Notes under the pieces: model-generated
What the model saw: only the letters and a program-made list of their open reading frames with translations
What the model was told of the DNA's origin: nothing
Database searches by the model: none
Shown here: in pieces, positions 26,209-64,000 of the stretch
Layout: the number at the start of each line of letters is the position of its first letter
Numbering within the stretch: the stretch's first letter is position 1
Assembly: GCA_004431415.1 (NCBI GenBank)
Contig: QPMI01000626.1
Location: forward strand, 248,001-312,000
Length of the DNA stretch: 64,000 nucleotides
Reading direction: 5' to 3'
From: Cyanophora paradoxa CCMP329
Taxonomy: Eukaryota > Plantae > Glaucophyta
Translations under genes and position numbers: made by a program

Positions 26209-26620
26209 TTAGTTGAACTGCCCGACGCCGCGGTAGCTGTCCTGACGCAAACAGAAGGCGGAAAAGGCAGCGCAGATGCGGATTGACGCGGTTCGCATGC
26301 TGTGTTTAGTTGAATTGCCTGACGCCGGCGCCACGGTAGCTATATAGCTGTCCTGACGCAAACAGACAGGTGGAGACGGAAGCGCGGCTGCGGGTCGATG
26401 CGGTTCGCATGCTGTGTTTAGTTGAATTGCCCGACACCGCGATAGCTGTCCTGACGCAAACAGAAGGCGGAAAAGGCAGCGCAGATGCGGATCGACGCGG
26501 TTCGCATGCTGTGTTTAGTTGAATTGCCTGACGCCGGCGCCACGGTAGCTGTCCTGACGCAAACAGACAGGTGGAGACGGCAGCGCAGCTGCGGGTCGAT
26601 GCGGTTCGCATGCGCATGCT
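26209..26620. repeat. Second copy of the four-unit tandem repeat
   Basis: Paralogous to 18656-19066. Confidence 0.85.
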
Positions 26621-32105: not shown

Positions 32106-32694
32106 TGCTGCCGCTGTCTGAAGGCCGCCAGGAAGAGGAAGAGCGCGCGCCCGACTTGGTCAGGGCAGCGGCTCGATGGGAGAGTCCCGCCTGCAGCGCG
32201 CGCTTAGCTAACGCATCCAGAGCAATTAAGGGCAGGTTTAGAGAGCAGAGCCGCACCGCCCAGGGCCCGGCGCGAGAGGATGCGGATGTGCGGTTTTAGG
32301 TCAGTTCGCCGCCGCGGCTGAAGCAGACGCCAGGGAGCTGCTGGATGGTGCCAATACCTACTAGCAGGGCTCTCGGAAGCTTGGCGAAGCTTGGAGAAGC
32401 TTGCGGGCTTGTTGGGCTCGTTGTTAGATGCTTGTACCCCTGCGTGAAGTAGCCCCCGCTGCAGCCGCGCTCGAAAGCCCGCCGCGCGACGGGACAGCAA
32501 AGCTCGGCTCAGCTTAAACAACTAGCTCGAGTGAGCCTAAGCGCAACGGTCGCCCGCTCAAGTTCGCTACAGCCCGGCTACACAGCCGTTAGTCGCTCCC
32601 GTGCCCTGCTTCCCACTGCTGAGGCGTGCAATGGCAGCGTCCTCCCGCCTCTAGCGTTCCGGGCCTTCCCGCGGCCGGCCAGAAAGACTCGGAG

Positions 32695-43673: not shown

Positions 43674-44237
43674 CCCCGCGGGGCCCTAGCGGCCTGCCCC
43701 CCCTTTTCTCAGAGTCTCTAGAGCGCGACGAACCGCGTACGCCCCACCCGCTTTCGCGCACCGACAGAACGTCGCAATGTAGGTCTGAAAACTAAAAACG
43801 AGGCCCGCGGTTCGCTTCTTCCATCAATTTGAACACTGTGCGAAAATGGACGCAAAAATGGACACGTCGCATCGATACACCACGGCACATGTATCAATGT
43901 TCTACTTGACGTGCCCTTCCGACAGGTCAGCTATCCAGCCGATCGCGAAGACGCTAGCTAGGTGCCGGCCTTGCGTCGCTCAGTATGGGAGGTTCGCCTG
44001 AGTGGGGGAGACATGGTTTCCGGTGATAGCCGTAGCCAGTCCCACGCGCCTACCCCTTGATCAACCCCACGTCATCCCTCATTGCAGCTGCTGCATGTGA
44101 TCGTGAGCGACGAATTCGAAGGCCCGATGTTGATTATTACTGTATATATATGTAGGCATAATCATGAATCACACCCTGCTTAATTATAAAGTTTGATTAT
44201 AAGCTTGCAATTTCAGTTGACGCAAGCACACAACGTG

Positions 44238-47200: not shown

Positions 47201-48124
47201 CGCGCGTTAGCGGTCGACGTCCTAAGCTTGACGGCGTCCGCGAATATCGATATCTCAGCTTATAATTGCGATACGCCGCGGCGCTAATTATATAAGGGTG
47301 TCCGACGGTCGTCGGATATCGATGCGCCAAGGATCGGAGCTCACCGTGCGGGTAGAGGCGATCGAGATGAAGAGACCGGCGAGAATCGCGCCGATCAGAG
47401 CTAGACAGAGGCGAACTTGAAACTGCGGCAAGCTTTAAGAAGCTGTCGCACACTGCGGCAGCAATGAAGATCGCAACGCGAATCGAAACCGTGGCTTTTT
47501 TCCTGCTGGCTCCTGAGAGGCGCCGGCGCCGGCGCGCGCGCGGTGCCGGCGCCTGCGCCTTCGGGGCCCGGGCGGCTCGAAAAAGCTCGAAAAGGCCGCG
47601 GCTGCAGCTGATCATGAAGCCTGAACCGAGGCTGAACCTTAGTCATGAATCAGGCTGCTGTGCCAGCCACTGCCAGGCTGCCAGCTCAGCGGCTGCAGGC
47701 TGCAGGCTGCAGCTGGCAGCCTGCAGGCGTGTCGGCCCACTGTCGGGTAGACGGTAAAAAAAGAGATGTGGAAGAACTCCGCAGCTTTTTTTCGCCTGGC
47801 TCCTGAGAGGTGCTGCCGGCGCCGGCTGGCTCGAAACGGTCGACGGCGCACCGGTTCGTGAAACGTTTCCCTTCAAATGAAATGGAGCTAACCAATAGAC
47901 TGCAAGCTTCATCAATTCCTGGGACACTACTCGGAAGCCAATGACTTGGCAATAGGTACCAGCTATAGCTTTGTTTTTGACGTAATATGCTAGGCTATTG
48001 GCTCGCTCTGCTCTGCTCTTTATGCCCCCTGGGCAGCCCCCGCAGTGCTGGTGTCTAGAGATCTAGACTGTGGCCGGTAATTCACCAAAAAAATATAACT
48101 TATTACTGATGACACAAGCGGACT
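44238..48124 (+). repeat. Left arm of a long inverted repeat, including an arm-specific segment of about 1.37 kb (44,650-46,020)
   Basis: Reverse complement of 49018-51434; mirror-image ORFs (46397+/50439-, 47643-/49145+). Confidence 0.95.
48014..48093 (+). mobile_element. Second, shorter copy of the poly(A)-tailed retroposon
   Basis: cagtgctgg..ctgtggccggtaattcacc followed by A7; absent from the opposite inverted-repeat arm. Confidence 0.65.
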
Positions 48125-48183
48125 ATTCGAAAAAAAATGGTTAATTATAACACGGCCGGCTGAGCTTGCAGTTCTGATTCAGG

Positions 48184-48467
48184 TCGTTTTCCCCATGCGC
48201 GGCGACTTGGAATTCGGTAATTAGCTAGGTAATTCGGGGTCTTTCGTCGACGAGGGGAGGGGTACAGTCTTTAAACTAGTCCGGACAGCCCGAGCTAATT
48301 AGCCGGAACTCGAGGAGGTCCGGGGCCGTCCGGCCCGACCTCCTCGAATTCCAAGCTAATTAGATTTTTACCGGTTCGAGGATCGTCCGCAAAAAAAGGT
48401 GCGTGTTCGACCTAATTACCTAATTACCTAATTCCCGACTACGGCAAGTCCTACATGGGGAAAACGA
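48184..48467. repeat. Quasi-palindromic foldback/MITE-like element, about 285 bp
   Basis: Perfect 14-bp terminal IR tcgttttccccatg/catggggaaaacga; inner taattag/ctaatta symmetry; central hairpin at about 48296-48363. Confidence 0.65.
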
Positions 48468-49017
48468 GGTCAGTTCCCCGATTTGTCTCAACGCATATGA
48501 GAACACAAGCCTGAAGGTGGCCATGGATCCCGGAGAGCATACCGTAGTAACCGGTATGCCGCTGTTAACGTTGTCACGGCGTGGCAGGGCGTGCGGCGCG
48601 AGCCGCGCGACTCGCGGCGCGCGCGGCGCGCGCGCCGGCGGTACGGTGGCGCGCGGACCCGGACCGTCGGACTACCGTAAAACTTGAAACACATAAACAC
48701 CGCGCCCACTTCATTACCGCGGTACCAAAATTACCGCGCCAAAAGTTTGTAAAAACGCGGTAATAATTTATAATTTGGTACCGCGGAAATTACAGCGCTC
48801 CGCGGCAAAGTCTTATTAAATTTTCAAGCTACCAACCCGGCCAAATCCTGGCCATGGGATTCCTAATTATTTTGGGGTCTTAAATAAAACCCGATATAGA
48901 AGAAATGTACAGCCTGGCAGGCCTAGGCCTAGCCTAATAACTCTATAGGCCGGACTCCGGCGCCATGCCTCAGAATCTGGCTCAGATGCCGCCCATAATA
49001 GAGTCCCATTGCTTGCA

Positions 49018-51434
49018 AGTCCGCTTGTGTCATAAGTAATAGGTTATAACTTAGTATTGAGCAGAGCGAGCCAATAGCCTAGCATATTACGTCAAAAACA
49101 AAGCTATAGCTGGTACCTATTGCCAAGTCATTGGCTTCCGAGTAGTGTCCCAGGAATTGATGAAGCTTGCAGTCTATTGGTTAGCTCCATTTCATTTGAA
49201 GGGAAACGTTTCACGAACCGGTGCGCCGTCGACCGTTTCGAGCCAGCCGGCGCCGGCAGCACCTCTCAGGAGCCAGGCGAAAAAAAGCTGCGGAGTTCTT
49301 CCACATCTCTTTTTTTACCGTCTACCCGACAGTGGGCCGACACGCCTGCAGGCTGCCAGCTGCAGCCTGCAGCCTGCAGCCGCTGAGCTGGCAGCCTGGC
49401 AGTGGCTGGCACAGCAGCCTGATTCATGACTAAGGTTCAGCCTCGGTTCAGGCTTCATGATCAGCTGCAGCCGCGGCCTTTTCGAGCTTTTTCGAGCCGC
49501 CCGGGCCCCGAAGGCGCCGGCGCCGGCACCGCGCGCGCGCCGGCGCCGGCGCCTCTCAGGAGCCAGCAGGAAAAAAGCCACGGTTTCGATTCGCGTTGCG
49601 ATCTTCATTGCTGCCGCAGTGTGCGACAGCTTCTTAAAGCTTGCCGCAGTTTCAAGTTCGCCTCTGTCTAGCTCTGATCGGCGCGATTCTCGCCGGTCTC
49701 TTCATCTCGATCGCCTCTACCCGCACGGTGAGCTCCGATCCTTGGCGCATCGATATCCGACGACCGTCGGACACCCTTATATAATTAGCGCCGCGGCGTA
49801 TCGCAATTATAAGCTGAGATATCGATATTCGCGGACGCCGTCAAGCTTAGGACGTCGACCGCTAACGCGCGATCACTAGCTATAGATCGCTTCGCGCGCT
49901 AAACGTATGCGTTCGCGTTGCAATTGAACGTTCACAAGGAACGTGTAACATACCTTATGTTAACGTACCGTAGTATGCATACTAATACTATGGAACTATG
50001 CATTCAATCTCTATAATATTAATGCCATGATGGTTTTCGCTCATGCGCATGCATGCAGATCGTACTCTGACAACATGGGCAATGTTGGAGGGAGTGCGTC
50101 GTTTTCAGTTTAAATGTGCATCTCTTCGCAGATTGATCACTCATGATCACTATATATCTCCGAATCAGAGGTCAAGTGTTACAGTTATGGCTCTTGCGGC
50201 GCTGCGCCGTCGACGGTCCAAACTGTCCTCTGGGAAGTCAACACCGACGCGACTGAACTGGCTGGTGAGATGTGCAAGGCCACCGGCGGGAAGTCAATGT
50301 CGTATGGCCAAGATTGCACGAACTTTCCGAATGCGTTCCCGATCGATTCATCTCCCACGTACTCTCTGATGGGTTATTTGCTTGACGCCGAGGCCCAGGT
50401 GCGCACTTCATCGTGATCGATATCACAGCAAAACTTAATCAGACAAAGCTGGATCTTTGCCCGCTAGCGCTAAGGCCGCGCCTGCGCCGATTAGTTAATT
50501 GATATAATGTAGTATCGTCACGGCGTACAAGGCTCTGAGAACTAATATGCACACGATCGCGAACAGATTGTTGAAGCCGAGATGGACGCCGCGGAGCTCG
50601 ACGCCGAGCTGGAGGCTGAGGCTGCGGTGCGCTCTGCATGCCCGCCCAATTTGCCGAGTTCGGGTTCACTTTAATTTGAGCTGATCATGCTCTCCATTGC
50701 ACACGGACTTCGCATCGTATGCAGGTGCTCGAGGCCGAATGCTACGCCGTGGACGCCGAGATCTGTGCTTAGAATCATGTGTCAGCTTTAAGCTGTGTCC
50801 GAGGTAGACGTCGACGTCGACGTCCGACGGTCAGACATTCGCAATTGCCGTTTGTCGACGCATGCAGTCGTACTTAATGCAAGATATCTTGCGCTGGCCA
50901 CAGCCGTAAGCTAGCGAGCTCTTGCGAGAGATACCCGCCGAACGGATGATGATAGCGATATTACGGGAAAGCTGGCATGCATGTGCGCGACGCCAACGTT
51001 TCCCTTTTGGGGGTAAATTGCAGAAGTACGTATACTCGCGATCGGTCTTGGAATTTGAGCATCAGGTGCACGGGCGATTGCAAGATCAAAGTGGATCCAG
51101 TCGTTTCAAGAAGGGTTCATTGTGGTCACCATGACCAGGTCTGTGGTCACCATGGCCAGGTCTCCCATGCACCTTGATAATTATAAGCTTCGGCACCGCA
51201 AGCCGACCCGAATTGAAGAGCTGCCCCGCTGCCGGGCCGCACTGCCCCTAGATCTAGATCCACGTATATCCCTCTAGACCTGGGCCTTCCCCCCGGCTCC
51301 CTCTTCTCCTCCGTCGACGTTCCCGGGTCCCCTTCCGGATCCATTTTGACCCCGCGGCCTATATCGATTGTACATGTGCATTATGCATCCAGTTGCCTAC
51401 ACGTCGTGCGACTGCAGCTGCGATGCATTGCCAG
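49018..51434 (-). repeat. Right arm of the long inverted repeat
   Basis: Matches 46020-48124 and 44238-44650 in reverse complement. Confidence 0.95.
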
Positions 51435-51830: not shown

Positions 51831-51972
51831 TCATATTTTGTGCTTTTCGCATAAATATTGTTTCAGATGCTCGAGCTCTTTCGAATTCGAATTCTGAACA
51901 AGCAGGGGGGCAAGCCCCCCCGCACCCCCCCATTTACTAATGAGCATGACCCAGGCCCCCTCCGATTCCGTC

Positions 51973-52370
51973 GTGCGCGGCGCGCCCGGCGGCGCAACAT
52001 CTCCCTCCACCAGTCCGTCCTCTCCTGCCTCGCCCGCGCCGAGCGCGCCCAGGGCGCCACCCCCACGTACCCGTACCCCTCCTCCTCCTCTTCCACCCCC
52101 TCCTCACCCGCCCCGTCCGAGGGGGCGGGCGATCGCGAGAGGCCCGCGGGGGCGCCGGTCGGCCGGGCGGCCTCGCCGCGGCCGCGCGGGGCCGGCGGGG
52201 CCGGCGCGGGGCGGCGCCCCTACCCCCCTCGCCCCCGCGACCAGTAGCTATAGCCCGGCGCAGCCCTAGCGGGCTGCCCCCACGTCCTACCCGCCTTCGG
52301 CTTTCGCTTTGTTCGGTTTTCGCGTAGCAATGAAGGTCTGAAAAATGAAATCGAGCAATGAGGTCCGCGT
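51973..52370 (+). pseudogene. Duplicated 3' end (last exon part plus 3' flank) of the 35968-43673 gene
   Basis: Direct, moderately diverged copy of about 43397-43810 (RRARRRNISLHQSVLSCLARAER..). Confidence 0.85.
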
Positions 52371-52819: not shown

Positions 52820-53234
52820 CCAAGAAAATTGAAGCGCGGACCCTCCTGTTCTGTACGATTGGATCCGCTTTGCCCAGGACTGTGACGCTTTCAAAACCCT
52901 TTTCGTTGCCTGAAACGTCGTTATCCTGTAAGTATAAATTAAAATCAGAATACGATACGAACTCGCGATCGAATTGAATGCAATAATGGTGCGCGCACAG
53001 CCACAATGCCCTTCGCTGATTCGTAGAAGAGAAAGCCTGTAGATCCGCAGTTGTGTGCGACGTTGTCACGCAAAATCGGATCCGTCATCTCGTCCCGCAC
53101 TTGAAAGCATCCATAACCGATTACGCTTGGGTCAACGTTTGCCACGTTGCAGCCCTCCACAATTGCTCGGCTCCCGCTCCTAATGAAAACTAAGCATGAC
53201 TTCGGAACGTTGTTGCGGATGGTGAGGCTCGCAT
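52820..53234 (-). pseudogene. Right-handed parallel beta-helix (PbH1/FBXO11-like) gene fragment cut by the viral insertion
   Basis: SLTIRNNVPKSCLVFIRSGSRAIVEGCNVAN..DPILRDNVAHNCGSTGFLFYESAKGIVA, a GT-AG intron, then DNDVSGNEKGFESVTVLGKADPIVQNRR. Homology stops at about 53,235. Confidence 0.6.
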
Positions 53235-53600
53235 GGGGGTGAGCCCCACCAATTGTGCGACCTTCCCGCGACCATTTTCAATAAGCACATTTTCAGCATC
53301 ACGAATCTCAGTCACAAAATCACAAATTCGCACTGAGCCACACTGTATTTTTCAAACATCTAACCCCTCCTTACTGAAACCAATCACAAAAACCTACATA
53401 TAATCTTTTCTCTAATTCCTTACCATTCCCAGTAAGCCCTTAAACCCTCCCTCGATTTCTCAGTAAGGACAGTAAGACCCCTATTTTTACGAAATGTTCC
53501 CGATCGTTTCCGGACTGTTTTCAGTTAGCCAAATTGAAAAATCAAGGTGAGCCCCACCAATTAAACAAGTGATCCCCACTTAAAGACTTCCCGATAATAT
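53235..53600. repeat. Putative left terminal (TIR) region
   Basis: Non-coding; starts GGGGGTGAGCCCC (hairpin); ggtgagccccaccaatt recurs at about 53546; cagtaag x3. The partner end is not in the window. Confidence 0.5.
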
Positions 53601-53609
53601 ACTGTAACA

Positions 53610-53933
53610 ATGGCAAGCGATCAAGTAACTCTACCTGAGAGTAAGCAATGCAATGTATGCAACAAGGTAAAACCGGCATCGAGTTATACATTGCAAAAGG
53701 GTAGCTCAGGAAGTATACTTTTGAATTGGAGATGCAAAGTCTGCGAACGTGACTATCGCAATTACCTTTATCATTTCGTGTTAAAAACGCGTCCGAAGAT
53801 CGAAGTACAATCGAAGATATGCTCGCACTGCAAGATTGAGAAGCCTGCAAGCGAGTATAATAAAAAACAAAGCACAAAGGATGGTCTCTACTATCAATGC
53901 CGAGAATGTTATAGTAAAACTCGTAAGAGTTAA
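53610..53933 (+). CDS. Tandem CxxC zinc-finger protein (type often attached to viral endonucleases)
   Basis: KQCNVCNKVKP..CKVC and KICSHCKIEKPASEY..DGLYYQCREC. Confidence 0.75.
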   Translation: MASDQVTLPESKQCNVCNKVKPASSYTLQKGSSGSILLNWRCKVCERDYRNYLYHFVLKTRPKIEVQSKICSHCKIEKPASEYNKKQSTKDGLYYQCRECYSKTRKS

Positions 53934-54173
53934 AACCGAATTTCATTTTATATTTTTTAAAGCGAGTTTGTGCATGAGCAAGCATGCCGAAAATGCCCAC
54001 CTGCACAAACTTGCGCACCCCATCGACAAAGTACGATGATCGACGAAGTACGACGATAGACCACGTTAAAATAAACTCGCGCCCCGCCCACTATGCAAGA
54101 TACATGCGAACAACATGCATGATCTATGAAAAATGATAAAATGAACAGGGTAAAAATATCGACTTAAATAATA

Positions 54174-54566
54174 ATGGATTCCCGATACCGCGGCTACCAC
54201 GTCATGCTTGACTATATAACCGACCCGTTCACCGAGTCCCCGGAGGCATGCGCCGAGTGGATCACAGCGAACCTGTCGCAATATATAACAGATCGCCAGA
54301 TGCGCATCGTGCACCAGCACACCTGCATTTTCGATGGCTCTAATTCCCCTCCCGGTTTCGCGATTGGCTTTCTATTAGATGAGTCGCATGCCACAGCTCA
54401 CTCTTATAGCGACCAGGGGCTATTAGCGATCGATATCTTTACATGCGGCTCAAATGCCGAAGCGAAGACAATGGGTATAGCACAGGACATTAACGATCTC
54501 ATACAGGAAAGGCTGAAAGTTCGAAAGTGGGACTTACAGGTCGAGCAAAGGTTCCCAATTTCATAA
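54174..54566 (+). CDS. speD: S-adenosylmethionine decarboxylase proenzyme (short prokaryotic/viral class)
   Basis: GYHVMLD, F..PPGFAIGFLLDESHATAHSY (ESH autocleavage site), LAIDIFTCG; 130 aa. Confidence 0.9.
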   Translation: MDSRYRGYHVMLDYITDPFTESPEACAEWITANLSQYITDRQMRIVHQHTCIFDGSNSPPGFAIGFLLDESHATAHSYSDQGLLAIDIFTCGSNAEAKTMGIAQDINDLIQERLKVRKWDLQVEQRFPIS

Positions 54567-54591
54567 AAAATGAAAAAAGCGACATATACAT

Positions 54592-54906
54592 TTAATGTTC
54601 CTTGATCGGAAACTTGCCCATTAGTGGGTGATCGAGACCCATAACATACCAGGATTTCATAACGGGATCCCAGCGGGCTTTCTCAGCCTTCGCTTGATCC
54701 TTAAATTCATAAGGAATATCGAGGTAAAGCTTCACGTTTCTTTGATACACTTGCTCATAGCTTAGAGTTTTGAACTGAGAGCATAGGGGGTGATCTTTCT
54801 TCATGACATACCAGCATGAATTCTCACGATCCCACTTTCCACCGAGGGATTTCGCAACGTCTTTTTTATCAAACGGAATATCAACATAATACTTTTCACC
54901 CTCCAT
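54592..54906 (-). CDS. Tandem DUF5710 domain protein
   Basis: YVDIPFDKKDVAKSLGGKWD..WYV and YLDIPYEFKDQAKAEKARWD..WYV. Confidence 0.8.
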   Translation of the reverse strand: MEGEKYYVDIPFDKKDVAKSLGGKWDRENSCWYVMKKDHPLCSQFKTLSYEQVYQRNVKLYLDIPYEFKDQAKAEKARWDPVMKSWYVMGLDHPLMGKFPIKEH

Positions 54907-54919
54907 CTCTTTTATATTT

Positions 54920-54939
54920 ACCGGAGAAAATAATTTCGG
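54920..54939 (-). promoter_or_regulatory. Conserved viral upstream motif (sense CCGAAATTATTTTCTCCGGT)
   Basis: 20-mer identical to 60680-60699; ends 14 nt upstream of the ATG at 54906. Confidence 0.7.
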
Positions 54940-54945
54940 GGTTTG

Positions 54946-56328
54946 TTATGAACGAGAAGACCGAAGAATGCGCGTAGTAGGGGCTGTGTAGCTTGCGCTC
55001 TGATTCTTGAATGATTTATACCACCGCTGACTGTTTACCTCTGAGAGCTTCTCAGTTCCCGCGATCGTTAATTTAGCGAGCTCTCTCAGCGCCCTCTTTG
55101 TCTTTTCTGCGCGATCTTCCAATAATGCGCCTTTTGGAACACTTGCGGCGACATCTATGCCTTCTTTTTGAACCTGCCGGATAGAAGCGGCTTCTATTTC
55201 GGCTGCTTTGATTGCGTTGCCTGATGGCTCCACCACAGCTTCGACCTCTGTAATGATTTGCAATTCGTGCGGCTTAAAAAGCTTCGGCATTACGTTCCCC
55301 GCTGCATCTTGCACCTCTATTGCGTTTCCCCTCCTTCCCACTATTTTGTAGACCTCTCTGCTATACCTTTGGGTCGCGCCTTTATCGAACTTCGATCTCG
55401 GCAATAATAGGCGGACGTGGAGACCCGGCTTAAAGTCGCTGAATATATCCTTTACGATTGTGTTCTTTCTCGAAATAATAGCCGCTCGGATCTGCTCCAT
55501 ATCTGAGAGCTTTACATCCCCCGGTTTCATTCCTATGGTTCTGTGAATGGTGTTATTGTAATTGAAAACGAAGTCGTCCAATTTATCCATAAACCGCACT
55601 GTATTATAGGCGACACAGTAATTGTTTATCATCGTTTTTAGGGTCAAATGAAAGCGATTCATAATTCCCAGCGAAGTGTGATCTCCGACCTGTTTAAAGC
55701 GGTGTTCTATTCCGTTATTTTTAACGATCTCCTGAAACTCCTTTGCGATGAATTCTGAGCCGTTATCTGTCTCTAAACGCTTCATTGGAGCCGGGAGCTC
55801 TGTGAGCATCTCCGCAAAAGCGGCGGCAACACTTGCGCCCTCCTTATTCTTTAACTTCTTGGCATATGCTTTTCGGCTTGTCATCTCGATGAGAGTAAGG
55901 ACTGCAATGTAGCCGGAATTATAATTGCCATATGAGAGATAAAAGATGAGATCTGCTTGGTAGCACCACGGCGGGGCTGTGATGGGAATAAAAGCGGTTT
56001 GGGTCGGTGCGGGGGGCTTCTTGTTGATCTGCATAAATTCTTGTTTCGCTGCGACATCTTGCACTTCTTTCAATGTGAGGCTCTTGTCCTCTTTTCTCAG
56101 CTCTTCGTACAATGCCGATGGGTTCTTAAAACCTGTCTTCGGGTCATACATGCGTCGCACGATCTTAGAGGACGGGTTAGCAATGCTAAAAGGAACATCT
56201 CCTAATAAATTTGATTTTGCTTGGCGTTTTGTGATTTTTTGGGGGATTAGCTCAGTTTCAGGAACCGCGATAGGTAGTATGGTGGTCTCTGTCTCCTCTC
56301 CCGCTACCCTTCTAACGATCCGTGACAT
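54946..56328 (-). CDS. Polinton/virophage-type retroviral-like (rve) integrase
   Basis: YDPKTGF..LY, YQADLI, LETDNGSEF, GIMNRFHLTLK, YNNTIHRTIGMKP, FKPGLHVR..FDKG..YSREVYKI. Confidence 0.92.
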   Translation of the reverse strand: MSRIVRRVAGEETETTILPIAVPETELIPQKITKRQAKSNLLGDVPFSIANPSSKIVRRMYDPKTGFKNPSALYEELRKEDKSLTLKEVQDVAAKQEFMQINKKPPAPTQTAFIPITAPPWCYQADLIFYLSYGNYNSGYIAVLTLIEMTSRKAYAKKLKNKEGASVAAAFAEMLTELPAPMKRLETDNGSEFIAKEFQEIVKNNGIEHRFKQVGDHTSLGIMNRFHLTLKTMINNYCVAYNTVRFMDKLDDFVFNYNNTIHRTIGMKPGDVKLSDMEQIRAAIISRKNTIVKDIFSDFKPGLHVRLLLPRSKFDKGATQRYSREVYKIVGRRGNAIEVQDAAGNVMPKLFKPHELQIITEVEAVVEPSGNAIKAAEIEAASIRQVQKEGIDVAASVPKGALLEDRAEKTKRALRELAKLTIAGTEKLSEVNSQRWYKSFKNQSASYTAPTTRILRSSRS

Positions 56329-56347
56329 TTCTTCTAATTAAACCTGT

Positions 56348-57850
56348 TTATTTTTTGCTGCAATTGCACCCGTGATGCGCGAGTTGACAATTGTCTTTAA
56401 GGTGTGGGCGCTTATTATTGATGCGATCCACGACGAGCCTGTAATTCGGATCTTGCGGCTCAATCGGAATCGGAAGGGAACAGAGCGCACAGGCGCCCTT
56501 CTGTTGCTTCTTGCGCTCTAATATCCACTCCGGCGTAATATAATCCGCCTCGTTGAAATCGCGACCGGCACGCTGATCCTGGCATTTATAACCGCGGATC
56601 TTCGTTTTCAGATATTCGATGTAGTCGCTCTTTCCTTGGAACTTGTGAATAGGTGTATAAATCAGCACCGTAGACAGATCGCGGTTACGAGTGAGCGCGG
56701 TATAGAACCATTCGCGAGTGGTATAGCGGAACGTAGCCTCACAAATGACAATGCCCGAATCAAGTGTGAGACCTTGCGTTGAATGACCTGTTCCTGCATA
56801 AGGGAGAGAAAAATGTTCTAACATCGCGCACGGAACCTCGAACGTGACGCCATCGAAGACGTCAGTTAATGTGACCATTTGCTTGGTGATTTTGGTGATC
56901 CGATAGGTGTAATTTGTGTATGCGTTAATAGACTCACCCTCAGACCGCGAAATGCGTAGATACCTGCGACAAACGACCTCCAAACCCTTGTAGAATTTGA
57001 TGCCGTTGACCTCTACGGTTGCAATATTTACTTTTCGTCTATCGTGCATCAGTTTGTTATAGGCTAAGGTCATTTCGTTTCTGTAAGCGATGCCAAAGTA
57101 GCCGTCGGGAATGGCGCTTAGATCATTAATTGTCGGCAACCCGTATTTCGAGATAATCTGTGAGGCTTCGAGTCCGTTTTCGAAGAGATCCTCTTTAATC
57201 GCCCGAATTAATTCACGGTCTGTCTCCTTCTTGTGCCGCTTGTTTATGCGTAGACTCAGGACATTAGGGAACATGCTCTGCACAGCGCGCTTATAGTAGC
57301 CCTTGCGATCAGAAACCGAGAGCTCGTCATTAATTGGTTCGTTCTGATAGGTATCGCCATTAGCCAAATATTTGATATCCGGATAGCGGTCTATGAAAGT
57401 CTTGATCTTAGCGAGATCCTTTACGGAATACGCGAATATCTCGTCGAACATTATATGGCTGAACTCGGAGACGAACGCCCTCTGGTCTTTTTCGCTCATA
57501 GCCTCTTCGTAGGTCTGATCATTTGAGACACGGATCCCGAGAACATTATATAAAGTACGAACGGTAATATTCTCGATTCCGCGGACTTTGAGAGAGTCCC
57601 TCAGCTCCGCGCACTGTTTGTTATAGGGGCAAATAACTAAGCAATTCGACTTTTGAGATGCGAAACAGTTAATACCGAGTGTCGACTTTCCACTTCCGGG
57701 CATGTCAGCAAGGACAAGCATACGATTATGGAGCTTCGCAACCCAATTAAAGCACTCCGGATTAAATTCGTCCCTCAGCGAGAACCGGTTAATGAGTGTC
57801 TCGGGATCCTGAAATTCGAGAGTTACACCCGTGGTGGGCGGAGTGCATTC
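56348..57850 (-). CDS. Superfamily 1 (RecD/Pif1-like) helicase with C-terminal HNH endonuclease; frame open to 57850, first ATG at 57721
   Basis: Walker A DMPGSGKS, Walker B MFDEIF, GDTYQNEPI, YAGTGHSTQGLT, YTALTR; CALC..VDRINNKRPHLKDNCQLAHHGCNCSK. Confidence 0.9.
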   Translation of the reverse strand, partial: ECTPPTTGVTLEFQDPETLINRFSLRDEFNPECFNWVAKLHNRMLVLADMPGSGKSTLGINCFASQKSNCLVICPYNKQCAELRDSLKVRGIENITVRTLYNVLGIRVSNDQTYEEAMSEKDQRAFVSEFSHIMFDEIFAYSVKDLAKIKTFIDRYPDIKYLANGDTYQNEPINDELSVSDRKGYYKRAVQSMFPNVLSLRINKRHKKETDRELIRAIKEDLFENGLEASQIISKYGLPTINDLSAIPDGYFGIAYRNEMTLAYNKLMHDRRKVNIATVEVNGIKFYKGLEVVCRRYLRISRSEGESINAYTNYTYRITKITKQMVTLTDVFDGVTFEVPCAMLEHFSLPYAGTGHSTQGLTLDSGIVICEATFRYTTREWFYTALTRNRDLSTVLIYTPIHKFQGKSDYIEYLKTKIRGYKCQDQRAGRDFNEADYITPEWILERKKQQKGACALCSLPIPIEPQDPNYRLVVDRINNKRPHLKDNCQLAHHGCNCSKK

Positions 57851-60657
57851 TCAGGGCATCTTTTCCCGGGAATATAGCTGAATTTGCCCATGTTCTCAAA
57901 CGCATTTCGGTCGAACTCTTTCTTACTTGTCCATGAACCTTCGATATATAGGCAATCCGTTCTGATCCCGGCAACCTTGTGCCCGCGCGCTGTCAGGCGC
58001 TTGTATTGCGCAAACATATTGGCACGGTTGCGATCGTAAATATGAAAGTGGATAGGAAGGAATCCGTTAACGAGCTCGCGGTGGGAGCTGATCTTAACGA
58101 AATAGATGTGACCTTCGAATTCGCTAAGAGTTTTGACACGTTTCGAATTCTTAGGATTGAAAGTAAACACCTCTACTGTTCCTCCGCATTCTTGGGCGAA
58201 CCTCTCAGCCTCGGCACGGTTGTAGAACATTTTCGTGGATGTTTGCGAGTCTTGGAATTTGCCGAGCATTCCGATCTCTTTCACTAAAATGTGCTTCTTA
58301 TCTGTGGTTTGAATGTCACTTGAAAGTACTTTCTTCATCTCCGAGATCGACGTATTGGGCACCAAATGCGAAGGCTCCGCGACCGCGATAATCTCTATCT
58401 TGTCCTTTACGTCCGCCCAATGCATGGAGAGAGTGTAGCCTGTCATGAAATTATAACAGCGACCACTCACGGAAAATGCGCGATCCAGAATAATTTCGAT
58501 TCCATCAATCTTGCGAGACATGGCGGCATCATAATCTACATCCTCATCATCGGCGAAAGTCGCTTGCTCTCTCTCAAACGCAACAACACGCACGTAGTAG
58601 ATCGCGTATTCGAGAATATCGCTTCCCGCTTTAAAGGGAACGAAGTCATCGAATACATTGTATTTCGGAAGATATTGCATGCCTTTTAGAATCGAAGGGT
58701 AGCACTTCGCCATATCGACAGCTGTGTAGGTGGCTTTCGGGTTCGGCTTATAGAAAAAGCCGCTTAGTGCGGATCGCTTGTAGTGCGTGAGAATTTCGCG
58801 CATGTTCGGGCTGTAATGTGAGATATTCGTCGCATTTAGTAGCGACTCGCGGAACCCCTTACCGATTTCACAGACCTTATTATAATACTCCTCTGTTTCG
58901 AAATCTTGCTCAATAAAGTGGTCGGTTGTGCGTGGATCTTTGATAGAGAACATCGAGCCATTAGCTTTGAATGTGATGCTGTCGATTTGTTTCGATGGTG
59001 TTAGCTTCACTGCGGGCTCATATCGCATTTTCAGGAACGTAAATAGAAGACCTTCCAGACCTTCGCGCCCAGTATAAAGAATGCGGATGAAACTGCGCTC
59101 GTCGGGCGATAGTTTTAGTTGCGTGATCTTTAACAAATCCTTGGATGTGTGCGCGAAGATATCGTGAGTAAGACACGTCGGAATTTTATAGAGTGCTAAC
59201 GAAGAGGTCGACTTAGGAACATGATTATCGAGCTCTTCGACCTCCATCTTTGCCATGCGCATTTCGAGCGACTTGATGTTATCGTTGAATATATAGATAT
59301 GCTTGTTGTGAATCATAAAGTGAATATTGCGGGGATTGATATTTTTGTTAATTGATTCTGCCGCGAATTTGTATACTAACTTACCGTCGACATCAAAGAC
59401 GCGGAAGCCTGTCTGAATTCTCTTACAGAATTTCTCGATGTGGCGGAGGGTGAGAGCCAGAGAGTCGCCAGGTGTGCGTTCGTGACCGTGAAAGAATTTA
59501 TAGAGACCGTCGTAGGACATAGTTAAGTCAGTATATCGCGGTTTTGGCGCCTCCTGACACTTCTTAATGGACGCTCCCCATGTGGAGATGATCATATCGT
59601 AGCCGCAAGCGTTAGATGTCGATGATTTGGGAAGCTCAATAATATCTTCGAACTCAGACGCGTTTGGATTTAATGTGTAGTCTGTGAATTTGCTCATAAT
59701 CGCGGTGCATCGCATGCTGTCCATTAGCTCCTCATCCAGAAACGCATAGCGATTTCCAGGGATAGCACCGGCTCCGTCATCTTCGACACCTTCGTCCCCA
59801 TCGATCACGACCTCATGAACAGTTATAAAGGCATCATCGACACTGCCGCCAAAATCATTAAACATAAGGCGTAGTCTTTTCTGTTCATCGGTTGGTGGTG
59901 TCTTAAAGAAGAACACCTCGTATGCTTGTCCGAACGTTTCGAGATATATAGTCAATTCATCGTAGTTTTCGAGTAAACGGAAGATTGATTTTCTCTCTTC
60001 CGAATAATAACGATTTTGAGCGGTGAGAACTCCATACCGTTTATCGATTTTTGCCAGAGCAAAGTTTCGCAACACCCTCACCGAAACTGTCTCTCTTATA
60101 TTGCGGTAGGTGACAAAGGTTTTGTCTTTTATACGTGTTCCGGGAATTCCGGGAATAACAATTACCTCCGACGACCGAGCACCGGATCCAGGTCCCCATA
60201 GCTTGAACGTAATTGTTGCGAGAGTTTCCGGATCGTATGCGGCGATTGGATCGAGAATAGTGCGTTTAATCGCATCCTCTACCGATTTTACTTTACCTCT
60301 CTGCTGCTTCGCTTCGAGTTTCGCTTCTTTCGCTCGTTTCTGTTCTTGCTTGCGATCGAAGCGCTGTAAACGCTTAGCCTCTTGTTCTTTTTGCTTCTGC
60401 TTTTCTATATTAACTTGGGTGCGAGCGGCGCGCTTTTCTTTCCGCTCTGCCCTGCGGAAAACGCGGGGATTAATGATTCCATTCAGAGTATCCCGAATGT
60501 CTATCAGCGTTTGGAGCTTGGGCTTCCGATTCATTGTGTTGTGCATCGCCCAATGCGCCTGTTCTTCGGTTAGCAAATCCTGACTCAATCCCTGCATAAT
60601 GTATCCGATAATTTCATCCCGAACATTGTTAGCGATTCTGTTGGTTGCGCGCGGCAT
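57823..60657 (-). CDS. polB: Divergent family B (protein-primed type) DNA polymerase with N-terminal putative terminal-protein and vOTU protease regions
   Basis: Motif A AVDMAKCYPS, motif B KHILVKEIGMLGK, motif C GIRTDCLY; upstream NACGYDMI..RVFD..IHFMIHNKHIY (Cys/His pair). Confidence 0.78.
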   Translation of the reverse strand: MPRATNRIANNVRDEIIGYIMQGLSQDLLTEEQAHWAMHNTMNRKPKLQTLIDIRDTLNGIINPRVFRRAERKEKRAARTQVNIEKQKQKEQEAKRLQRFDRKQEQKRAKEAKLEAKQQRGKVKSVEDAIKRTILDPIAAYDPETLATITFKLWGPGSGARSSEVIVIPGIPGTRIKDKTFVTYRNIRETVSVRVLRNFALAKIDKRYGVLTAQNRYYSEERKSIFRLLENYDELTIYLETFGQAYEVFFFKTPPTDEQKRLRLMFNDFGGSVDDAFITVHEVVIDGDEGVEDDGAGAIPGNRYAFLDEELMDSMRCTAIMSKFTDYTLNPNASEFEDIIELPKSSTSNACGYDMIISTWGASIKKCQEAPKPRYTDLTMSYDGLYKFFHGHERTPGDSLALTLRHIEKFCKRIQTGFRVFDVDGKLVYKFAAESINKNINPRNIHFMIHNKHIYIFNDNIKSLEMRMAKMEVEELDNHVPKSTSSLALYKIPTCLTHDIFAHTSKDLLKITQLKLSPDERSFIRILYTGREGLEGLLFTFLKMRYEPAVKLTPSKQIDSITFKANGSMFSIKDPRTTDHFIEQDFETEEYYNKVCEIGKGFRESLLNATNISHYSPNMREILTHYKRSALSGFFYKPNPKATYTAVDMAKCYPSILKGMQYLPKYNVFDDFVPFKAGSDILEYAIYYVRVVAFEREQATFADDEDVDYDAAMSRKIDGIEIILDRAFSVSGRCYNFMTGYTLSMHWADVKDKIEIIAVAEPSHLVPNTSISEMKKVLSSDIQTTDKKHILVKEIGMLGKFQDSQTSTKMFYNRAEAERFAQECGGTVEVFTFNPKNSKRVKTLSEFEGHIYFVKISSHRELVNGFLPIHFHIYDRNRANMFAQYKRLTARGHKVAGIRTDCLYIEGSWTSKKEFDRNAFENMGKFSYIPGKRCPENALRPPRV

Positions 60658-60679
60658 CTCTATTAGTTCTTTTAAAATA

Positions 60680-60699
60680 ACCGGAGAAAATAATTTCGG
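60680..60699 (-). promoter_or_regulatory. Conserved viral upstream motif
   Basis: Same 20-mer, about 23 nt upstream of the polB ATG. Confidence 0.7.
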
Positions 60700-60825
60700 C
60701 GCAATCTACCAAATTCTCCTTTTCATACCCTTGTCGCCAATTCTTTAAGTGCTTTTTGACCGATACGGGGAATAAAAAGGGAGGTAAAAAATTAATCATT
60801 TTTTGCATCGTGCGGATACTTTCCG

Positions 60826-61239
60826 CTACGGATTTTTCGCGTTCTCGACAACATGCTTTCGGGGTCTCCCAGCGGGCTTTTGCGGCTGGGGCTTTACCGG
60901 CGGATTCAGCTTTCGTTCCGCTCTCTTTCTGCGTTGGTATTCCCTTGCCTTCTCTCGGATTTTCTCCCGATACTCTTCATCGTCTTGGTATCGCTGCTGT
61001 TTACGAATTGCAATCTTTTGTAGCTGTTCCGGGGTGAATATCGTAGCCTCTCCGGCGGCTAATCGCTCCTGTTTTTGTCTCTGATGCTTGTTTCGCTGCC
61101 GCTCGGCGTCTTTTTCGCGTTTTAATCTTAATCTCTCCGCCTTCTCCTCTTCTGTGATCACCTTTTTCGGTCGCCCGGGTCTGCGCTTTTCCTGCTGTGC
61201 CGCCATCGCCTCTTGGTTTGAAATCTTGGGTTTCGCCAT
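60826..61239 (-). CDS. Small basic protein with two AT-hook-like motifs
   Basis: KRRPGRPKK and AGRPRK flank a Lys/Arg/Glu-rich helix; upstream motif present. Confidence 0.7.
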   Translation of the reverse strand: MAKPKISNQEAMAAQQEKRRPGRPKKVITEEEKAERLRLKREKDAERQRNKHQRQKQERLAAGEATIFTPEQLQKIAIRKQQRYQDDEEYREKIREKAREYQRRKRAERKLNPPVKPQPQKPAGRPRKHVVENAKNP

Positions 61240-61247
61240 TTACTATA

Positions 61248-61260
61248 ACCGGAGAAAATA
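61248..61260 (-). promoter_or_regulatory. Conserved viral upstream motif (core TATTTTCTCCGGT)
   Basis: About 9 nt upstream of the ATG at 61239. Confidence 0.65.
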
Positions 61261-61363
61261 GTTTTTTGTCACTCTGTATTATTTCCCTTGCCCTTAAATA
61301 CCTTTTACCGAAACCTTCAATTTTTGCCCTTGGCTCGATACAAGCGCCACCGAAATTCACCGC

Positions 61364-61780
61364 TCAATAACCATTCCAGACGGTTCTTTCTTGTTGCTGA
61401 GGATATACATAAGGGTTTGTTAAGCTGTCATCGTCGCCTAATGCCATTTGATCCAATCTATACATCGGATAAGGGGAGTCAGCGCGCAAATGACCTTCTA
61501 CAAACTCAGGACATGAGCGCCTTCTAATATGCTCTACATGCACGTCCTCTATCTGAGCGGTTTCGATATTGGAACTCATAGCCGCGGTCACAGGCGAGGG
61601 CGATCGAGATCGTGGGTGGTTGTGATTGTCGCTGTGGTTAGAATATACAGAAAGGCGCCTACCTCCATTATCCTCGCCATCTGATATTTCGATTTCTACG
61701 GTTGTGTCACAGCATGGACTGTGGCAATTAGACACGACGTGAAGCTGAAACATCTCAATGCATTGTGTGATGAAATTCAT
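61364..61780 (-). CDS. Viral hypothetical protein
   Basis: 138-aa ATG ORF preceded by the conserved motif. Confidence 0.55.
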   Translation of the reverse strand: MNFITQCIEMFQLHVVSNCHSPCCDTTVEIEISDGEDNGGRRLSVYSNHSDNHNHPRSRSPSPVTAAMSSNIETAQIEDVHVEHIRRRSCPEFVEGHLRADSPYPMYRLDQMALGDDDSLTNPYVYPQQQERTVWNGY

Positions 61781-61810
61781 CGACCCTACAAATGGGCAAC
61801 GTATTAAATA

Positions 61811-61823
61811 TCGGAGAAAATAA
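61811..61823 (-). promoter_or_regulatory. Conserved viral upstream motif variant (TTATTTTCTCCGA)
   Basis: About 31 nt upstream of the ATG at 61780, between divergent ORFs. Confidence 0.6.
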
Positions 61824-61829
61824 AAGGGA

Positions 61830-62147
61830 ATGAGGGCTTTACTTGCTCGTGTGTTTCCTTATGAGTTGGTCGACCTTATAATGCTGTTTATGGAGCCGAC
61901 ATGCCCGTTTTGCAAGGGCGTTCATAGCGCTTGCGCGAGGCAAGCTTGCGTGCCGCTTAGACCCGCTCTAAATACGGGCGGGTTCAGCTTTGCCTTGCGG
62001 ATATTCACAGTCATTAGCGGATATGGCGTTTACCACCGAGCATTGCGGCATAATTCACGGGTGCGGTCGGCACAATATGTGCATATTGCGGGGCGACCGA
62101 TTGCTGACGAGTTACGGCTTGCGCATCTGTCTTTTCCTCCTTTTTAA
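61830..62147 (+). CDS. Viral hypothetical protein, possible F-box-like N-terminus and CxxC
   Basis: LLARVFPYELVDLIMLF, CPFCKGVH; 3' end overlaps the opposite-strand ORF. Confidence 0.4.
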   Translation: MRALLARVFPYELVDLIMLFMEPTCPFCKGVHSACARQACVPLRPALNTGGFSFALRIFTVISGYGVYHRALRHNSRVRSAQYVHIAGRPIADELRLAHLSFPPF

Positions 62148-62697
62148 TCTCCTCTACGTCGACCTTTTGCTTTAATCCGAGCTTTGAGATCTCTTTCTTT
62201 ACGAGCCCCTTTAATTTCTTGCGTTCGTTATAATCTTGCATCCATTTCTCGTAGTTAGAGACTTTCATTTCAAGGTCTCGCACTTTCTCTTCAAAGCTCA
62301 TGACAACGTCGACAGGAACCGTGTGTTTTTGATAGGATCCGCGCTTTTTAAGCTCAGTTTCGGCGGCTTTTGGGACGTCTTGCGTTTTGTGCTGGCTTGC
62401 GACAACTTGCGCTTTTAGTACTTTGTCGGTTGCTTCATCGATGGAGCCGCCTCCAATCTGTGGTTTTACAGTAGCTAAATCGTCCATTTGGCGTTTACCG
62501 CTATCTTGGTTTCCCTTGTCCGCGGTGGCACTCGCAATAATCGCCTCTTGCTTGGCGACCTCTTCTGGCGAAGTGTCTATAAGATATTCGGGCATTTCGA
62601 GACCGCCGCCCGACGTTAATCCAGACTCTTCAAGTCCGCGATTAGGATTACCAGAAGCGACCGTTTGAATGGTTTGAGGCTTCTTTCGGTAGACCAT
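62014..62697 (-). CDS. Viral hypothetical coiled-coil protein
   Basis: 227-aa ORF starting immediately after the ATPase stop codon. Confidence 0.7.
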   Translation of the reverse strand: MVYRKKPQTIQTVASGNPNRGLEESGLTSGGGLEMPEYLIDTSPEEVAKQEAIIASATADKGNQDSGKRQMDDLATVKPQIGGGSIDEATDKVLKAQVVASQHKTQDVPKAAETELKKRGSYQKHTVPVDVVMSFEEKVRDLEMKVSNYEKWMQDYNERKKLKGLVKKEISKLGLKQKVDVEEIKKEEKTDAQAVTRQQSVAPQYAHIVPTAPVNYAAMLGGKRHIR

Positions 62698-62699
62698 GA

Positions 62700-63566
62700 T
62701 TATCTTTTCTTACACTTGATTAACATTTTCTTTTTCTTGGGCGAAATTTGCGAAAGTTTGGGGATACCTTCAAGCTCACGCTCAAATTTGGATAAAGTTT
62801 TGCATACAGTTGTCGAATCTTTGACAGGCGGCGGTTTTGTAGCTTGCTCCTCTTGTTGTTTGCGCTTCTTTTCTTCAAAAGCCGCCCGCTTGTGGAATTT
62901 CGTAAACGGATGGTCATCGATCATATCGGCTTTTTCGACCCACCATCGCACAGAATACCCGGTATTATCGTGAATGATCGCTTGGTAGCTATGACAGAAT
63001 TCTTGGAACATGCGCTTAAAACTCTCTTTATCCATGTTCCCGAACTCTTCGTGATATGCTTCAAACTCTCGCATGTTTGACCAGCTTAGGAATATGATAT
63101 ACTCCGCATTGCTGCGAATGATCGTTGAAAGTTTTGTTAGTTTCTGCGATATTAAAGCCACGGAACAAAACGTATGACGACCTTGCGCCATCAATTTATT
63201 TAGCAAATGATCGCGCGAAAGATCGATAGTTCCGGACTCCAAACAATCGTCGAGTACGATGAGAATATTCTTTGGTTTCTTTCCAGCGATGATAGCTTTC
63301 TTGCGGGCTTCTATGATCGACTCTACATATTCCGGTTTCCAGGTATCATGCACTTCGTCTGTTATTTGACCCCAGAAACCGTTAAAACTCGTAGGACAGA
63401 AAACCAGAACATACGAGATCTGGTCTTCGAGTTCTTTGATCAGCCACTTTAAGAATACCGATTTACCACAATTGGTTTTCGCCAATAGGAGAAATCGTGC
63501 GGGAAGTTTCACCCTTTGTTTCGGGTTCCATTCTTCGAGATCCATGGGCGTCGTCCCTTTTTGCAT
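62700..63566 (-). CDS. A32/FtsK-HerA genome-packaging ATPase
   Basis: LLAKTNCGKS (Walker A), ILIVLDDC (Walker B), QGRH, LISQ, IIRSNAEY; likely ATG at 63566. Confidence 0.93.
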   Translation of the reverse strand: MQKGTTPMDLEEWNPKQRVKLPARFLLLAKTNCGKSVFLKWLIKELEDQISYVLVFCPTSFNGFWGQITDEVHDTWKPEYVESIIEARKKAIIAGKKPKNILIVLDDCLESGTIDLSRDHLLNKLMAQGRHTFCSVALISQKLTKLSTIIRSNAEYIIFLSWSNMREFEAYHEEFGNMDKESFKRMFQEFCHSYQAIIHDNTGYSVRWWVEKADMIDDHPFTKFHKRAAFEEKKRKQQEEQATKPPPVKDSTTVCKTLSKFERELEGIPKLSQISPKKKKMLIKCKKR

Positions 63567-63624
63567 TCTTTCACTATAAAAACAATAGAAAAATAAGACT
63601 GAATGTGGTAATCGCACGAATTCC

Positions 63625-64000
63625 TCATGCTGATACTCTTCGGATTCCGTCGGCGGAAATTATCATTATGTTATGAGCGAGGGCAATGCACTGAATTTGC
63701 ATCTTCTGATACGCGGAGCCCGCATACCACTCCTCATTACCGACTCCACCGGCTGTGACACCATTGAATTCGAAGACCAGATCGAACGCCGATGTGCCTG
63801 TGGCATCGATGTAGCCCGTGTTCTCTTGGTTGAGAAGCGACGCCTTTCCGTTTCCAGCACCGAAGTAAATGCCAGTGAGAGCGGGGTAGCTTGTGCTCTC
63901 GGTAAAGATCGCCGAATTATATTTATCTTGAAGTTCGGTCGCGGCAATCATGAGAGGAAGCGAAGTATTCGAGTAAAGGCGGTTATTGTTGAGTTCCACA
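63625..64000 (-). CDS. C-terminal part of probable major capsid protein (double jelly-roll)
   Basis: Frame open to the window edge; beta-rich; ends ..IALAHNIMIISADGIRRVSA*, like PLV capsid C-termini; adjacent to the packaging ATPase. Confidence 0.55.
   Translation of the reverse strand, partial: VELNNNRLYSNTSLPLMIAATELQDKYNSAIFTESTSYPALTGIYFGAGNGKASLLNQENTGYIDATGTSAFDLVFEFNGVTAGGVGNEEWYAGSAYQKMQIQCIALAHNIMIISADGIRRVSA

What the first reader, a model, noticed from the sequence alone, without database searches (positions are those of the whole stretch)
53235..64000. Largely intact endogenous Polinton-like virus with an unusual gene set
The element combines a packaging ATPase and probable capsid protein with an rve integrase, a PolB/SF1-helicase/HNH replicase, AdoMetDC and DUF5710. 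ORFs are tightly packed with only one visible break and a preserved shared upstream motif. This suggests recent integration and possible reactivation, perhaps as a parasite of, or defence against, a giant virus (as established for Mavirus/CroV). It is the strongest candidate for an undescribed system in the window.
Basis: partly seen in the sequence, partly recalled or inferred. Interest (0 to 1): 0.85.

Follow-up and report, generated by a model that had tools for sequence, protein, structure and literature searches.

The report
Known algal Polinton-like provirus, left part
This is the left part of one of likely tens of inserted copies of a virus-like element in an alga, likely Cyanophora paradoxa; its capsid protein is almost identical to one already published and its gene set is of a known kind, so it is real but largely ordinary.

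Summary
Bases 53227-64000 (46% GC, host 67%) are the left part of a multi-copy endogenous Polinton-like virus. The left end is at 53227, not 53235. The cut-off last gene matches a published Cyanophora paradoxa major capsid protein at 121 of 124 residues (Bellas 2023, Table S2; compared by eye). The replicase is the known Tlr1-like fusion (vOTU protease, PolB palm, SF1 helicase, HNH). Tlr1 and three IMG/VR contigs pair it with an rve integrase too. A 2025 table already counts AdoMetDC in 66 and rve in 85 of 156 glaucophyte elements. The single frameshift is absent from the contigs covering it in three DNA runs, so it is private to this copy or an assembly error. The upstream motif is real (4 copies, 0.02 expected). 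Against 'intact and ready to reactivate': the third catalytic residue of the integrase is Asn, not Glu, and depth relative to a host repeat is stable across three runs. Nothing here shows a giant-virus helper. Open points: the role of AdoMetDC, the motif, the D-D-N integrase, the right end.

The parts
53227..53262 (.). Left terminus of the element; whether it is one arm of a terminal inverted repeat is untested
   Evidence: Depth steps from 48 to 639 (X1) and 13.4 to 278 (X12) in the bin starting 53227; several contigs start at 53227; different flanks lie before 53227 in 1 record of X1 and 2 of X12
53546..53562 (+). Internal direct copy of a 17-base terminal motif (53238-53254), at the start of an optional cassette
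   Evidence: Sequence; joints skipping 53529/53540-53985 or 53550-54017 in X20, X12, X1
53610..53933 (+). 107-aa tandem zinc-binding protein like the N-terminal part of EndoVII/HNH nucleases; absent from some copies
   Evidence: PHROG 5558 E 2e-13, 1035 E 3.5e-12. 6 of 15 listed differences are silent on this strand; the overlapping minus-strand ORF gains a stop
54174..54566 (+). Bacterial-type pyruvoyl decarboxylase (AdoMetDC/SpeD fold), 130 aa, ESH and TCG motifs intact; substrate untested
   Evidence: PF02675 E 2.3e-11; TIGR03330 47 bits, below its 75.65 cut-off; aligns to PDB 2iii and 1tlu
54592..54906 (-). Tandem DUF5710 protein, 104 aa
   Evidence: PF18974 E 9.4e-24, two stretches
54946..56328 (-). 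rve integrase, 460 aa; catalytic triad reads D126-D188-N224
   Evidence: PF00665 E 5.1e-14; Glu at the N224 position in 4 of 4 related viral integrases and in the lentiviral integrase chains aligned
56348..57844 (-). SF1 helicase plus C-terminal HNH/EndoVII domain: 3' part of the Tlr1-like replicase
   Evidence: PHROG 325 E 1.5e-14, 1035 E 2.8e-10; helicase motif residues invariant in 28 sequences
57823..60657 (-). N-terminal domains, vOTU-like protease (C351, H453) and PolB palm (D648, K788, T900-D901): 5' part of the Tlr1-like replicase; one-base frameshift at its 3' end in this assembly
   Evidence: 463 relatives at E<=0.001; C351, H453, D648, K788, D901 in 40 of 40 aligned; contigs of X1, X9, X12 over this site are one base longer
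60826..61239 (-). Basic 137-aa protein with AT-hook-like motifs, likely DNA-binding
   Evidence: PF02178 17.5 bits against cut-off 17.4; motif 10 bases upstream
61364..61780 (-). 138-aa ORF of unknown family; partly skipped in some copies
   Evidence: No hit; motif 31 bases upstream; joints 61339-61463 and 61357-61647
62014..62697 (-). 227-aa ORF of unknown family, directly after the ATPase
   Evidence: ORF; only weak hits
62700..63566 (-). A32-like genome-packaging ATPase, 288 aa
   Evidence: PF04665 E 1.7e-10; one relative at 67% identity
63625..64000 (-). 3' end (124 aa) of the major capsid protein gene, cut by the window edge
   Evidence: 121 of 124 residues identical, by eye, to the C-terminus of gene_3321 in Table S2 of PMC10120064
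54922..54932 (-). Upstream motif TATTTTCTCCG, 15 bases before the DUF5710 start
60682..60692 (-). Upstream motif, 24 bases before the replicase start
61250..61260 (-). Upstream motif, 10 bases before the AT-hook ORF
61812..61822 (-). Upstream motif, 31 bases before the 138-aa ORF

Best explanation
This is the left 10.8 kb of one chromosomal copy of a multi-copy Polinton-like virus with a Tlr1-type replicase and an rve integrase, in an alga that is likely Cyanophora paradoxa; the family likely replicates in the nucleus on its own enzymes, and this copy is likely dormant. Shown: genes, left end, repeated occurrence, capsid identity. Inferred from PMC11161782: one long protein is made; its vOTU domain would cut off a terminal-protein domain; the PolB palm would extend from the protein primer at the ends of a linear genome while the fused SF1 helicase unwinds ahead. 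The A32 ATPase would pump genomes into double jelly-roll capsids, and an rve integrase would insert new copies. The shared motif likely marks transcription starts. AdoMetDC most likely supplies decarboxylated SAM for spermidine synthesis (untested; such homologues can be arginine or ornithine decarboxylases). This copy's D-D-N integrase is predicted to be weak or dead, so new insertions would need a sister element's enzyme. Odds: identity as an endogenous PLV about 0.95; helper-independent lifestyle about 0.55 to 0.6.
For: Hallmark genes and GC step. Capsid match to a published C. paradoxa MCP; that genome has 366 MCP hits. All 124 of 124 relatives of 1100 aa or more, among 151 examined, carry the helicase; protease and polymerase catalytic residues are invariant in 40 of 40 aligned. 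PMC11161782 predicts such palms are active despite the lost first Asp of motif C. Replicase directly followed by rve, with ATPase and capsid-sized genes nearby, in 3 of 8 IMG/VR loci (L002-L004). Single element contigs are 13-49 times deeper than the flank contig. 8 of 12 listed differences in five core genes are silent (binomial p 0.003-0.02), so copies diverged under selection. TsV-S1, with the same replicase type, is described as autonomous. C. paradoxa methylates and silences repeats.
Against: No right end, target duplication or minor capsid gene is in reach. The integrase lacks its catalytic Glu. Motif B Asn (36 of 40 relatives) is Val792 here. My own tests did not recognise the capsid fragment, and the published HHpred support for that row is only 92% (94-98.5% for the other five C. 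paradoxa rows). The selection test uses 12 of 605 listed differences, chosen by the tool as best supported. A short shared upstream motif also fits helper-driven transcription, as in Gezel-14T. Dormancy and methylation of this copy were not measured.
Confidence: 0.6

Rival explanations
1. Same element, but helper-dependent: a virophage-like PLV transcribed by an unknown glaucophyte giant virus that recognises the upstream motif, possibly protecting the host population.
For: The motif is strict, element-specific and 10-31 bases from start codons. Gezel-14T shares its helper's early promoter; Tetraselmis PLVs are awakened by TetV-2. The motif contains TCCG(G), part of the TCCGGA motif of Tetraselmis virus 1: a lead only.
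Against: No helper is known: two literature searches listed no glaucophyte giant virus by title or abstract start. The motif is not the AAAATTGA early promoter and precedes only 4 of 9 annotated starts. The Tetraselmis PLVs that were awakened use other replicases.
Confidence: 0.25
2. A former virus that now spreads, or spread, only as a transposon-like element; this copy is dead.
For: D-D-N integrase; a frameshift if it is real in this copy; copies with internal skips and up to more than 10% divergence; depth relative to a host repeat is constant at 8.0-10.0 in runs of 2012, 2019 and 2024. Tlr1 was described as a transposon.
Against: ATPase and capsid frames are open; a compensating indel pair keeps the capsid frame in X12 (63730/63737); silent changes dominate; the frameshift is absent from the covering contigs of three runs.
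Confidence: 0.13
3. Chimeric assembly of a contaminant virus with host DNA.
For: The element is highly repeated; the flank contigs reach only 30 bases into it, one short of the tool's 31-base bridging standard; runs hold only 0.56-0.60 of its 31-mers.
Against: The same junction is in contigs of 3 of 3 DNA runs laid, from three years; 19 of 24 listed runs, all of one organism, hold more than half of its words; other host flanks join at the same base.
Confidence: 0.02

Closest known systems
Endogenous viral elements of Cyanophora paradoxa (Bellas et al. 2023, PMC10120064, Tables S1, S2, S4; Bulzu et al. dataset, PMC12220804, Table S6)
   Same: Capsid C-terminus 121 of 124 identical to a listed MCP. 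Of 156 glaucophyte elements, 139 have Pox_A32, 85 rve, 34 SF1 helicase, 66 AdoMet_dc.
   Different: The tables give counts, not gene maps, so co-occurrence in one element is not shown there. DUF5710, the upstream motif, the terminus and the D-D-N integrase were not found in the passages and supplements searched.
Tlr1 element of Tetrahymena thermophila and PLVs with Tlr1-like helicases (PMC5499653, PMC11161782)
   Same: vOTU-palm-SF1 helicase-homing endonuclease replicase without the first Asp of motif C; Tlr1 also has rve, ATPase, MCP and about 30 copies.
   Different: C-terminal nuclease is HNH here and GIY-YIG in Tlr1. AdoMetDC and DUF5710 are extra. No direct sequence comparison with Tlr1 was run.
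Freshwater/environmental PLV contigs L002-L004 (IMG/VR)
   Same: Replicase followed directly by rve on the same strand; A32 ATPase; DJR-like MCP.
   Different: 28-31% identity; 25-33% GC; their integrases keep Glu; their MCP profile does not match this capsid fragment; no AdoMetDC, DUF5710 or motif.
Mavirus / EMALEs of Cafeteria (virophages)
   Same: rve integrase; AT-rich insert in a GC-rich protist genome (the latter recalled); PolB lacking the first motif C Asp.
   Different: Mavirus pPolB has no fused SF1 helicase. No virophage-type MCP or maturation protease is recorded for glaucophyte elements (0 of 156). Helper dependence is not shown here.

Membership tests
Polinton-like virus | [quoted passage not shown] | tested here: met
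   Near-identity to a published MCP (HHpred 92% there). Own profile and fold tests on the 124-aa fragment were negative or uninformative.
Polinton-like virus | A32-like packaging ATPase | tested here: met
   PF04665 41.3 bits, cut-off 22.8
Polinton-like virus | Minor capsid protein (penton) | not testable with these tools
   Would lie beyond 64000; no genome is held
Polinton-like virus | Terminal inverted repeats, 15-40 kb length | tested here: inconclusive
   Sharp left end at 53227; right end outside the window
rve-integrating PLV | 5-6 base target site duplication | not testable with these tools
   Needs the right flank; no empty-site contig was listed
rve-integrating PLV | Intact D-D-E triad | tested here: not met
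   D126, D188, N224 in this copy; state in other copies unknown
Tlr1-like replicase | vOTU domain with catalytic Cys and His | tested here: met
   C351 and H453 invariant in 40 of 40; the name vOTU is assigned by position and motif, no fold was predicted
Tlr1-like replicase | PolB palm with motifs A, B and an xTD motif C | tested here: met
   D648, K788, G796, T900-D901
Tlr1-like replicase | C-terminal SF1 helicase fused in one ORF | tested here: met
   Split by one base in this assembly; covering contigs of 3 runs lack the shift; 124 of 124 long relatives fused
Tlr1-like replicase | Terminal-protein domain; no exonuclease | not tested
Polinton/Maverick (strict sense) | Canonical pPolB (PF03175) with exonuclease | tested here: not met
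   No PF03175 hit at E<=0.1
Virophage | Virophage-type MCP, cysteine protease, dependence on a giant virus | tested here: inconclusive
   No stand-alone protease in the part seen; 0 of 156 glaucophyte elements have a virophage MCP or protease; dependence not testable

The most novel reading that the evidence does not exclude
Glaucophyte PLVs carry a bacterial-type AdoMetDC (42% of 156 catalogued elements) to drain S-adenosylmethionine and blunt the host's CpG-methylation silencing, and their strict TATTTTCTCCG motif is the promoter fingerprint of a still unknown giant virus of glaucophytes; a family-wide D-D-N integrase would make this subfamily depend on sister elements for insertion.
Probability: 0.1. 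Interest if true: 0.75.

Novelty: already known. Interest (0 to 1): 0.28.

Why it matters
As it stands it adds detail to a catalogued family: an exact terminus, a candidate promoter motif, an optional zinc-finger cassette and an altered integrase. It would matter more if the AdoMetDC proved to act on host methylation or polyamine supply in a virus this small, or if the motif led to a glaucophyte giant virus. Two searches found no paper pairing DUF5710 or AdoMetDC with Polinton-like viruses in the main text; AdoMet_dc appears only as a table column.

Tried and rejected
Capsid tests on the 124-aa fragment that gave nothing: homologue search among longer proteins, 0 of 311 candidates; single-sequence fold, pLDDT 32; hhalign to five PLV MCPs, probability 0.1, same as two controls; PDB, only E=1 hits; HMM of 73 NCLDV-type MCPs, no hit, while five PLV MCPs scored only -0.7 to 10.3 bits and 500 shuffles reached 2.2. 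A model of the L001 MCP was too poor to use (pLDDT 42). No close relatives of ATPase or integrase in viral contigs, phages or metagenomes; one search returned 9 distant loci (27-38% identity) that look like bacterial IS transposases, of which the one with Asn at the 224 position (L166) aligns poorly there and was set aside. None of 10 window proteins is in the cluster collection. Free replicating DNA: raw element-to-flank depth varies (13, 36, 49) but is 8.0-10.0 against a neighbouring host repeat, so no sign of amplification. Programmed frameshift at 57823-57844: rejected, since covering contigs lack the shift. Minus-strand ORF 53542-53985: rejected. Terminal hairpin: not above chance, z -0.74. 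Expression: no RNA holder listed; run X20, whose RNA status is a guess, gave 12 records and was not used. No tRNA. Pfam on 14 host frames gave 0 hits, so the host was not identified from its own genes. Earlier findings of the scan: none on this genome or sequence; eight loosely related notes do not bear on it.
Full report
Observation. GC falls from about 0.67 in window 1-44000 to 0.457 from 53227 to the window end, and ten reading frames cover 88% of that stretch. Pfam finds an A32 ATPase, an rve integrase, AdoMetDC and two DUF5710 repeats above their cut-offs. PHROGs adds an SF1 helicase with a C-terminal EndoVII/HNH domain and a small zinc-binding protein. The motif TATTTTCTCCG occurs 4 times, always on the minus strand 10-31 bases before a start codon, never in the host part; 0.02 are expected. 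It precedes 4 of the 9 starts I annotate.

Ends and copy number. No genome is held, so I used public runs. 19 of 24 listed runs, all of one organism, hold 0.56-0.60 of the element's words. In 3 of 3 DNA runs laid, a contig runs from the left flank to 53256, and depth jumps there. At finer scale the step is at 53227, where several contigs start and other flanks join. The left end is therefore 53227. The flank contigs reach 30 bases in, one short of the tool's bridging standard. Single element contigs are 13, 36 and 49 times deeper than the flank contig, but 8.0, 8.8 and 10.0 times a neighbouring host repeat. The tool warns that depth is no copy number; I read this as roughly tens of stable chromosomal copies. 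Records range from over 99% to under 90% alike.

Replicase. The 944-aa and 498-aa frames overlap by a one-base shift. Contigs covering that site in X1, X9 and X12 are one base longer, at full depth, so the break is private to this copy or an assembly error; PMC10120064 warns of such artefacts. The search of representatives gave 463 relatives, of which the best 150 were listed. With P0001, 135 of 151 carry the helicase, including 124 of 124 of 1100 aa or more; 88 of 151 have the C-terminal CxxC...CxxCN pattern. In the first 40 long relatives, C351, H453, D648, K788 and D901 are invariant; motif B Asn (36 of 40) is Val here. This is the Tlr1-like helicase: TP-vOTU-palm-S1H with a C-terminal GIY-YIG or HNH nuclease, first called inactive (PMC5499653) and later predicted active (PMC11161782). 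It is not the reversed helicase-pPolB fusion of OmPLV.

Capsid and host. My own tests on the cut-off last ORF were negative. Table S2 of PMC10120064 lists a Cyanophora paradoxa MCP whose last 124 residues match at 121 positions, compared by eye. HHpred support there is 92% for that row and 94-98.5% for the other five rows from this species; the genome has 366 MCP hits in two clusters (272 and 94). This fixes the gene as MCP and makes C. paradoxa the likely host. Standard MCP profiles also miss these proteins: 2 of 156 in Table S6 of PMC12220804.

Is the gene set unusual? Not much. Tlr1 has the same replicase type with rve, ATPase and MCP. Of 8 IMG/VR loci fetched with a profile of relatives, 3 (L002-L004) place rve directly after the replicase; the L003 capsid-sized gene resembles DJR clusters in the Atlas. 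Table S6 counts, among 156 glaucophyte elements, 139 with Pox_A32, 85 with rve, 34 with SF1 helicase and 66 with AdoMet_dc (columns checked). The main text never mentions AdoMetDC. DUF5710 was found in one unrelated paper.

Is the copy intact? Over the part seen, nearly. 8 of 12 listed differences in AdoMetDC, integrase, replicase and ATPase are silent (p 0.003-0.02); these come from 40 rows shown of 605. Compensating indel pairs keep the replicase and capsid frames in other copies. But the integrase has Asn at the third catalytic position, where 4 of 4 related viral integrases and the lentiviral chains have Glu. That site is not among the differences shown, which does not prove other copies share it. 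That such a change impairs integration is recalled knowledge. AdoMetDC keeps its ESH and TCG motifs.

Mechanism. Shown: an integrated, repeated element with capsid, packaging, replication and integration genes. Inferred: protein-primed replication with a built-in helicase, packaging into jelly-roll capsids, integration by an rve enzyme, silencing by CpG methylation, which marks repeats in C. paradoxa (not measured for this locus). I favour a helper-independent nuclear lifestyle (about 0.55-0.6), because TsV-S1 with this replicase type is described as autonomous while the awakened Tetraselmis PLVs use other replicases. Helper dependence stays open (0.25): Gezel-14T shares its helper's promoter, and the motif here is unexplained. 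AdoMetDC most simply feeds spermidine synthesis; viral homologues can have other substrates.

Papers seen. Passages only: PMC8502044, PMC11161782, 10.1101/2022.07.28.501842, 10.1101/2025.10.09.676808, PMC9992855, PMC12344493. PMC5499653: parts 1-2 of 5. PMC12721341: abstract and Results. PMC12220804: passages and supplement file 1 searches and part 33. PMC10120064: passages, part 2 of 7, supplement searches and part 29 of a file cut when stored. 10.64898/2026.06.19.733378: passages and section 6; its supplements were not seen and may classify this lineage.

Verdict. Real, correctly recognised as an endogenous Polinton-like virus, and already catalogued as a family. Interest 0.28.

Noticed in passing
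window 44238-51434: Large foldback structure 1.8 kb left of the element: arms of about 2.4 kb (44238-44651 with 51043-51434 at 93%; 46021-48013 with 49059-51038 at 99%) around a 1045-base centre; the left arm has an extra 1.37 kb. One arm contig is 1.7-4.9 times flank depth. Looks like a long-TIR DNA transposon.
   Followed up: partly
window 15064-32511: Tandem segmental duplication of about 7.5 kb (15064-22693 and 22607-30104, 95-96% identical) with a partial third copy (30420-32511, 86%) and a further partial copy near 11900-15080.
   Followed up: no
window 51895-51931: Short G/C-rich palindromic repeat at very high depth (14,893 in X1 against about 50 nearby), found with many unrelated flanks; possibly the end of a small mobile element.
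   Followed up: no
window 39706-40704: Tandem array with a period of about 122 bases, about 8 units.
   Followed up: no
window 53530-54017: The zinc-finger cassette is skipped in some copies and begins with a copy of the terminal motif; the commoner version of the gene differs from this one at 15 or more sites.
   Followed up: partly
window 53341-53529 and 53985-54015: Run X20 holds one 931-base contig at depth 300 that matches only these two pieces and runs on unlike for 567 bases: perhaps a related subfamily or short derivative.
   Followed up: no
window 43398-43701 and 51975-52281: A 300-base piece of host GC-rich sequence is duplicated (94%) on both sides of the foldback structure.
   Followed up: no
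L008 (whole locus): IMG/VR contig with a split Tlr1-like replicase and rve fragment, flanked by inverted blocks of unrelated genes; may be chimeric.
   Followed up: no
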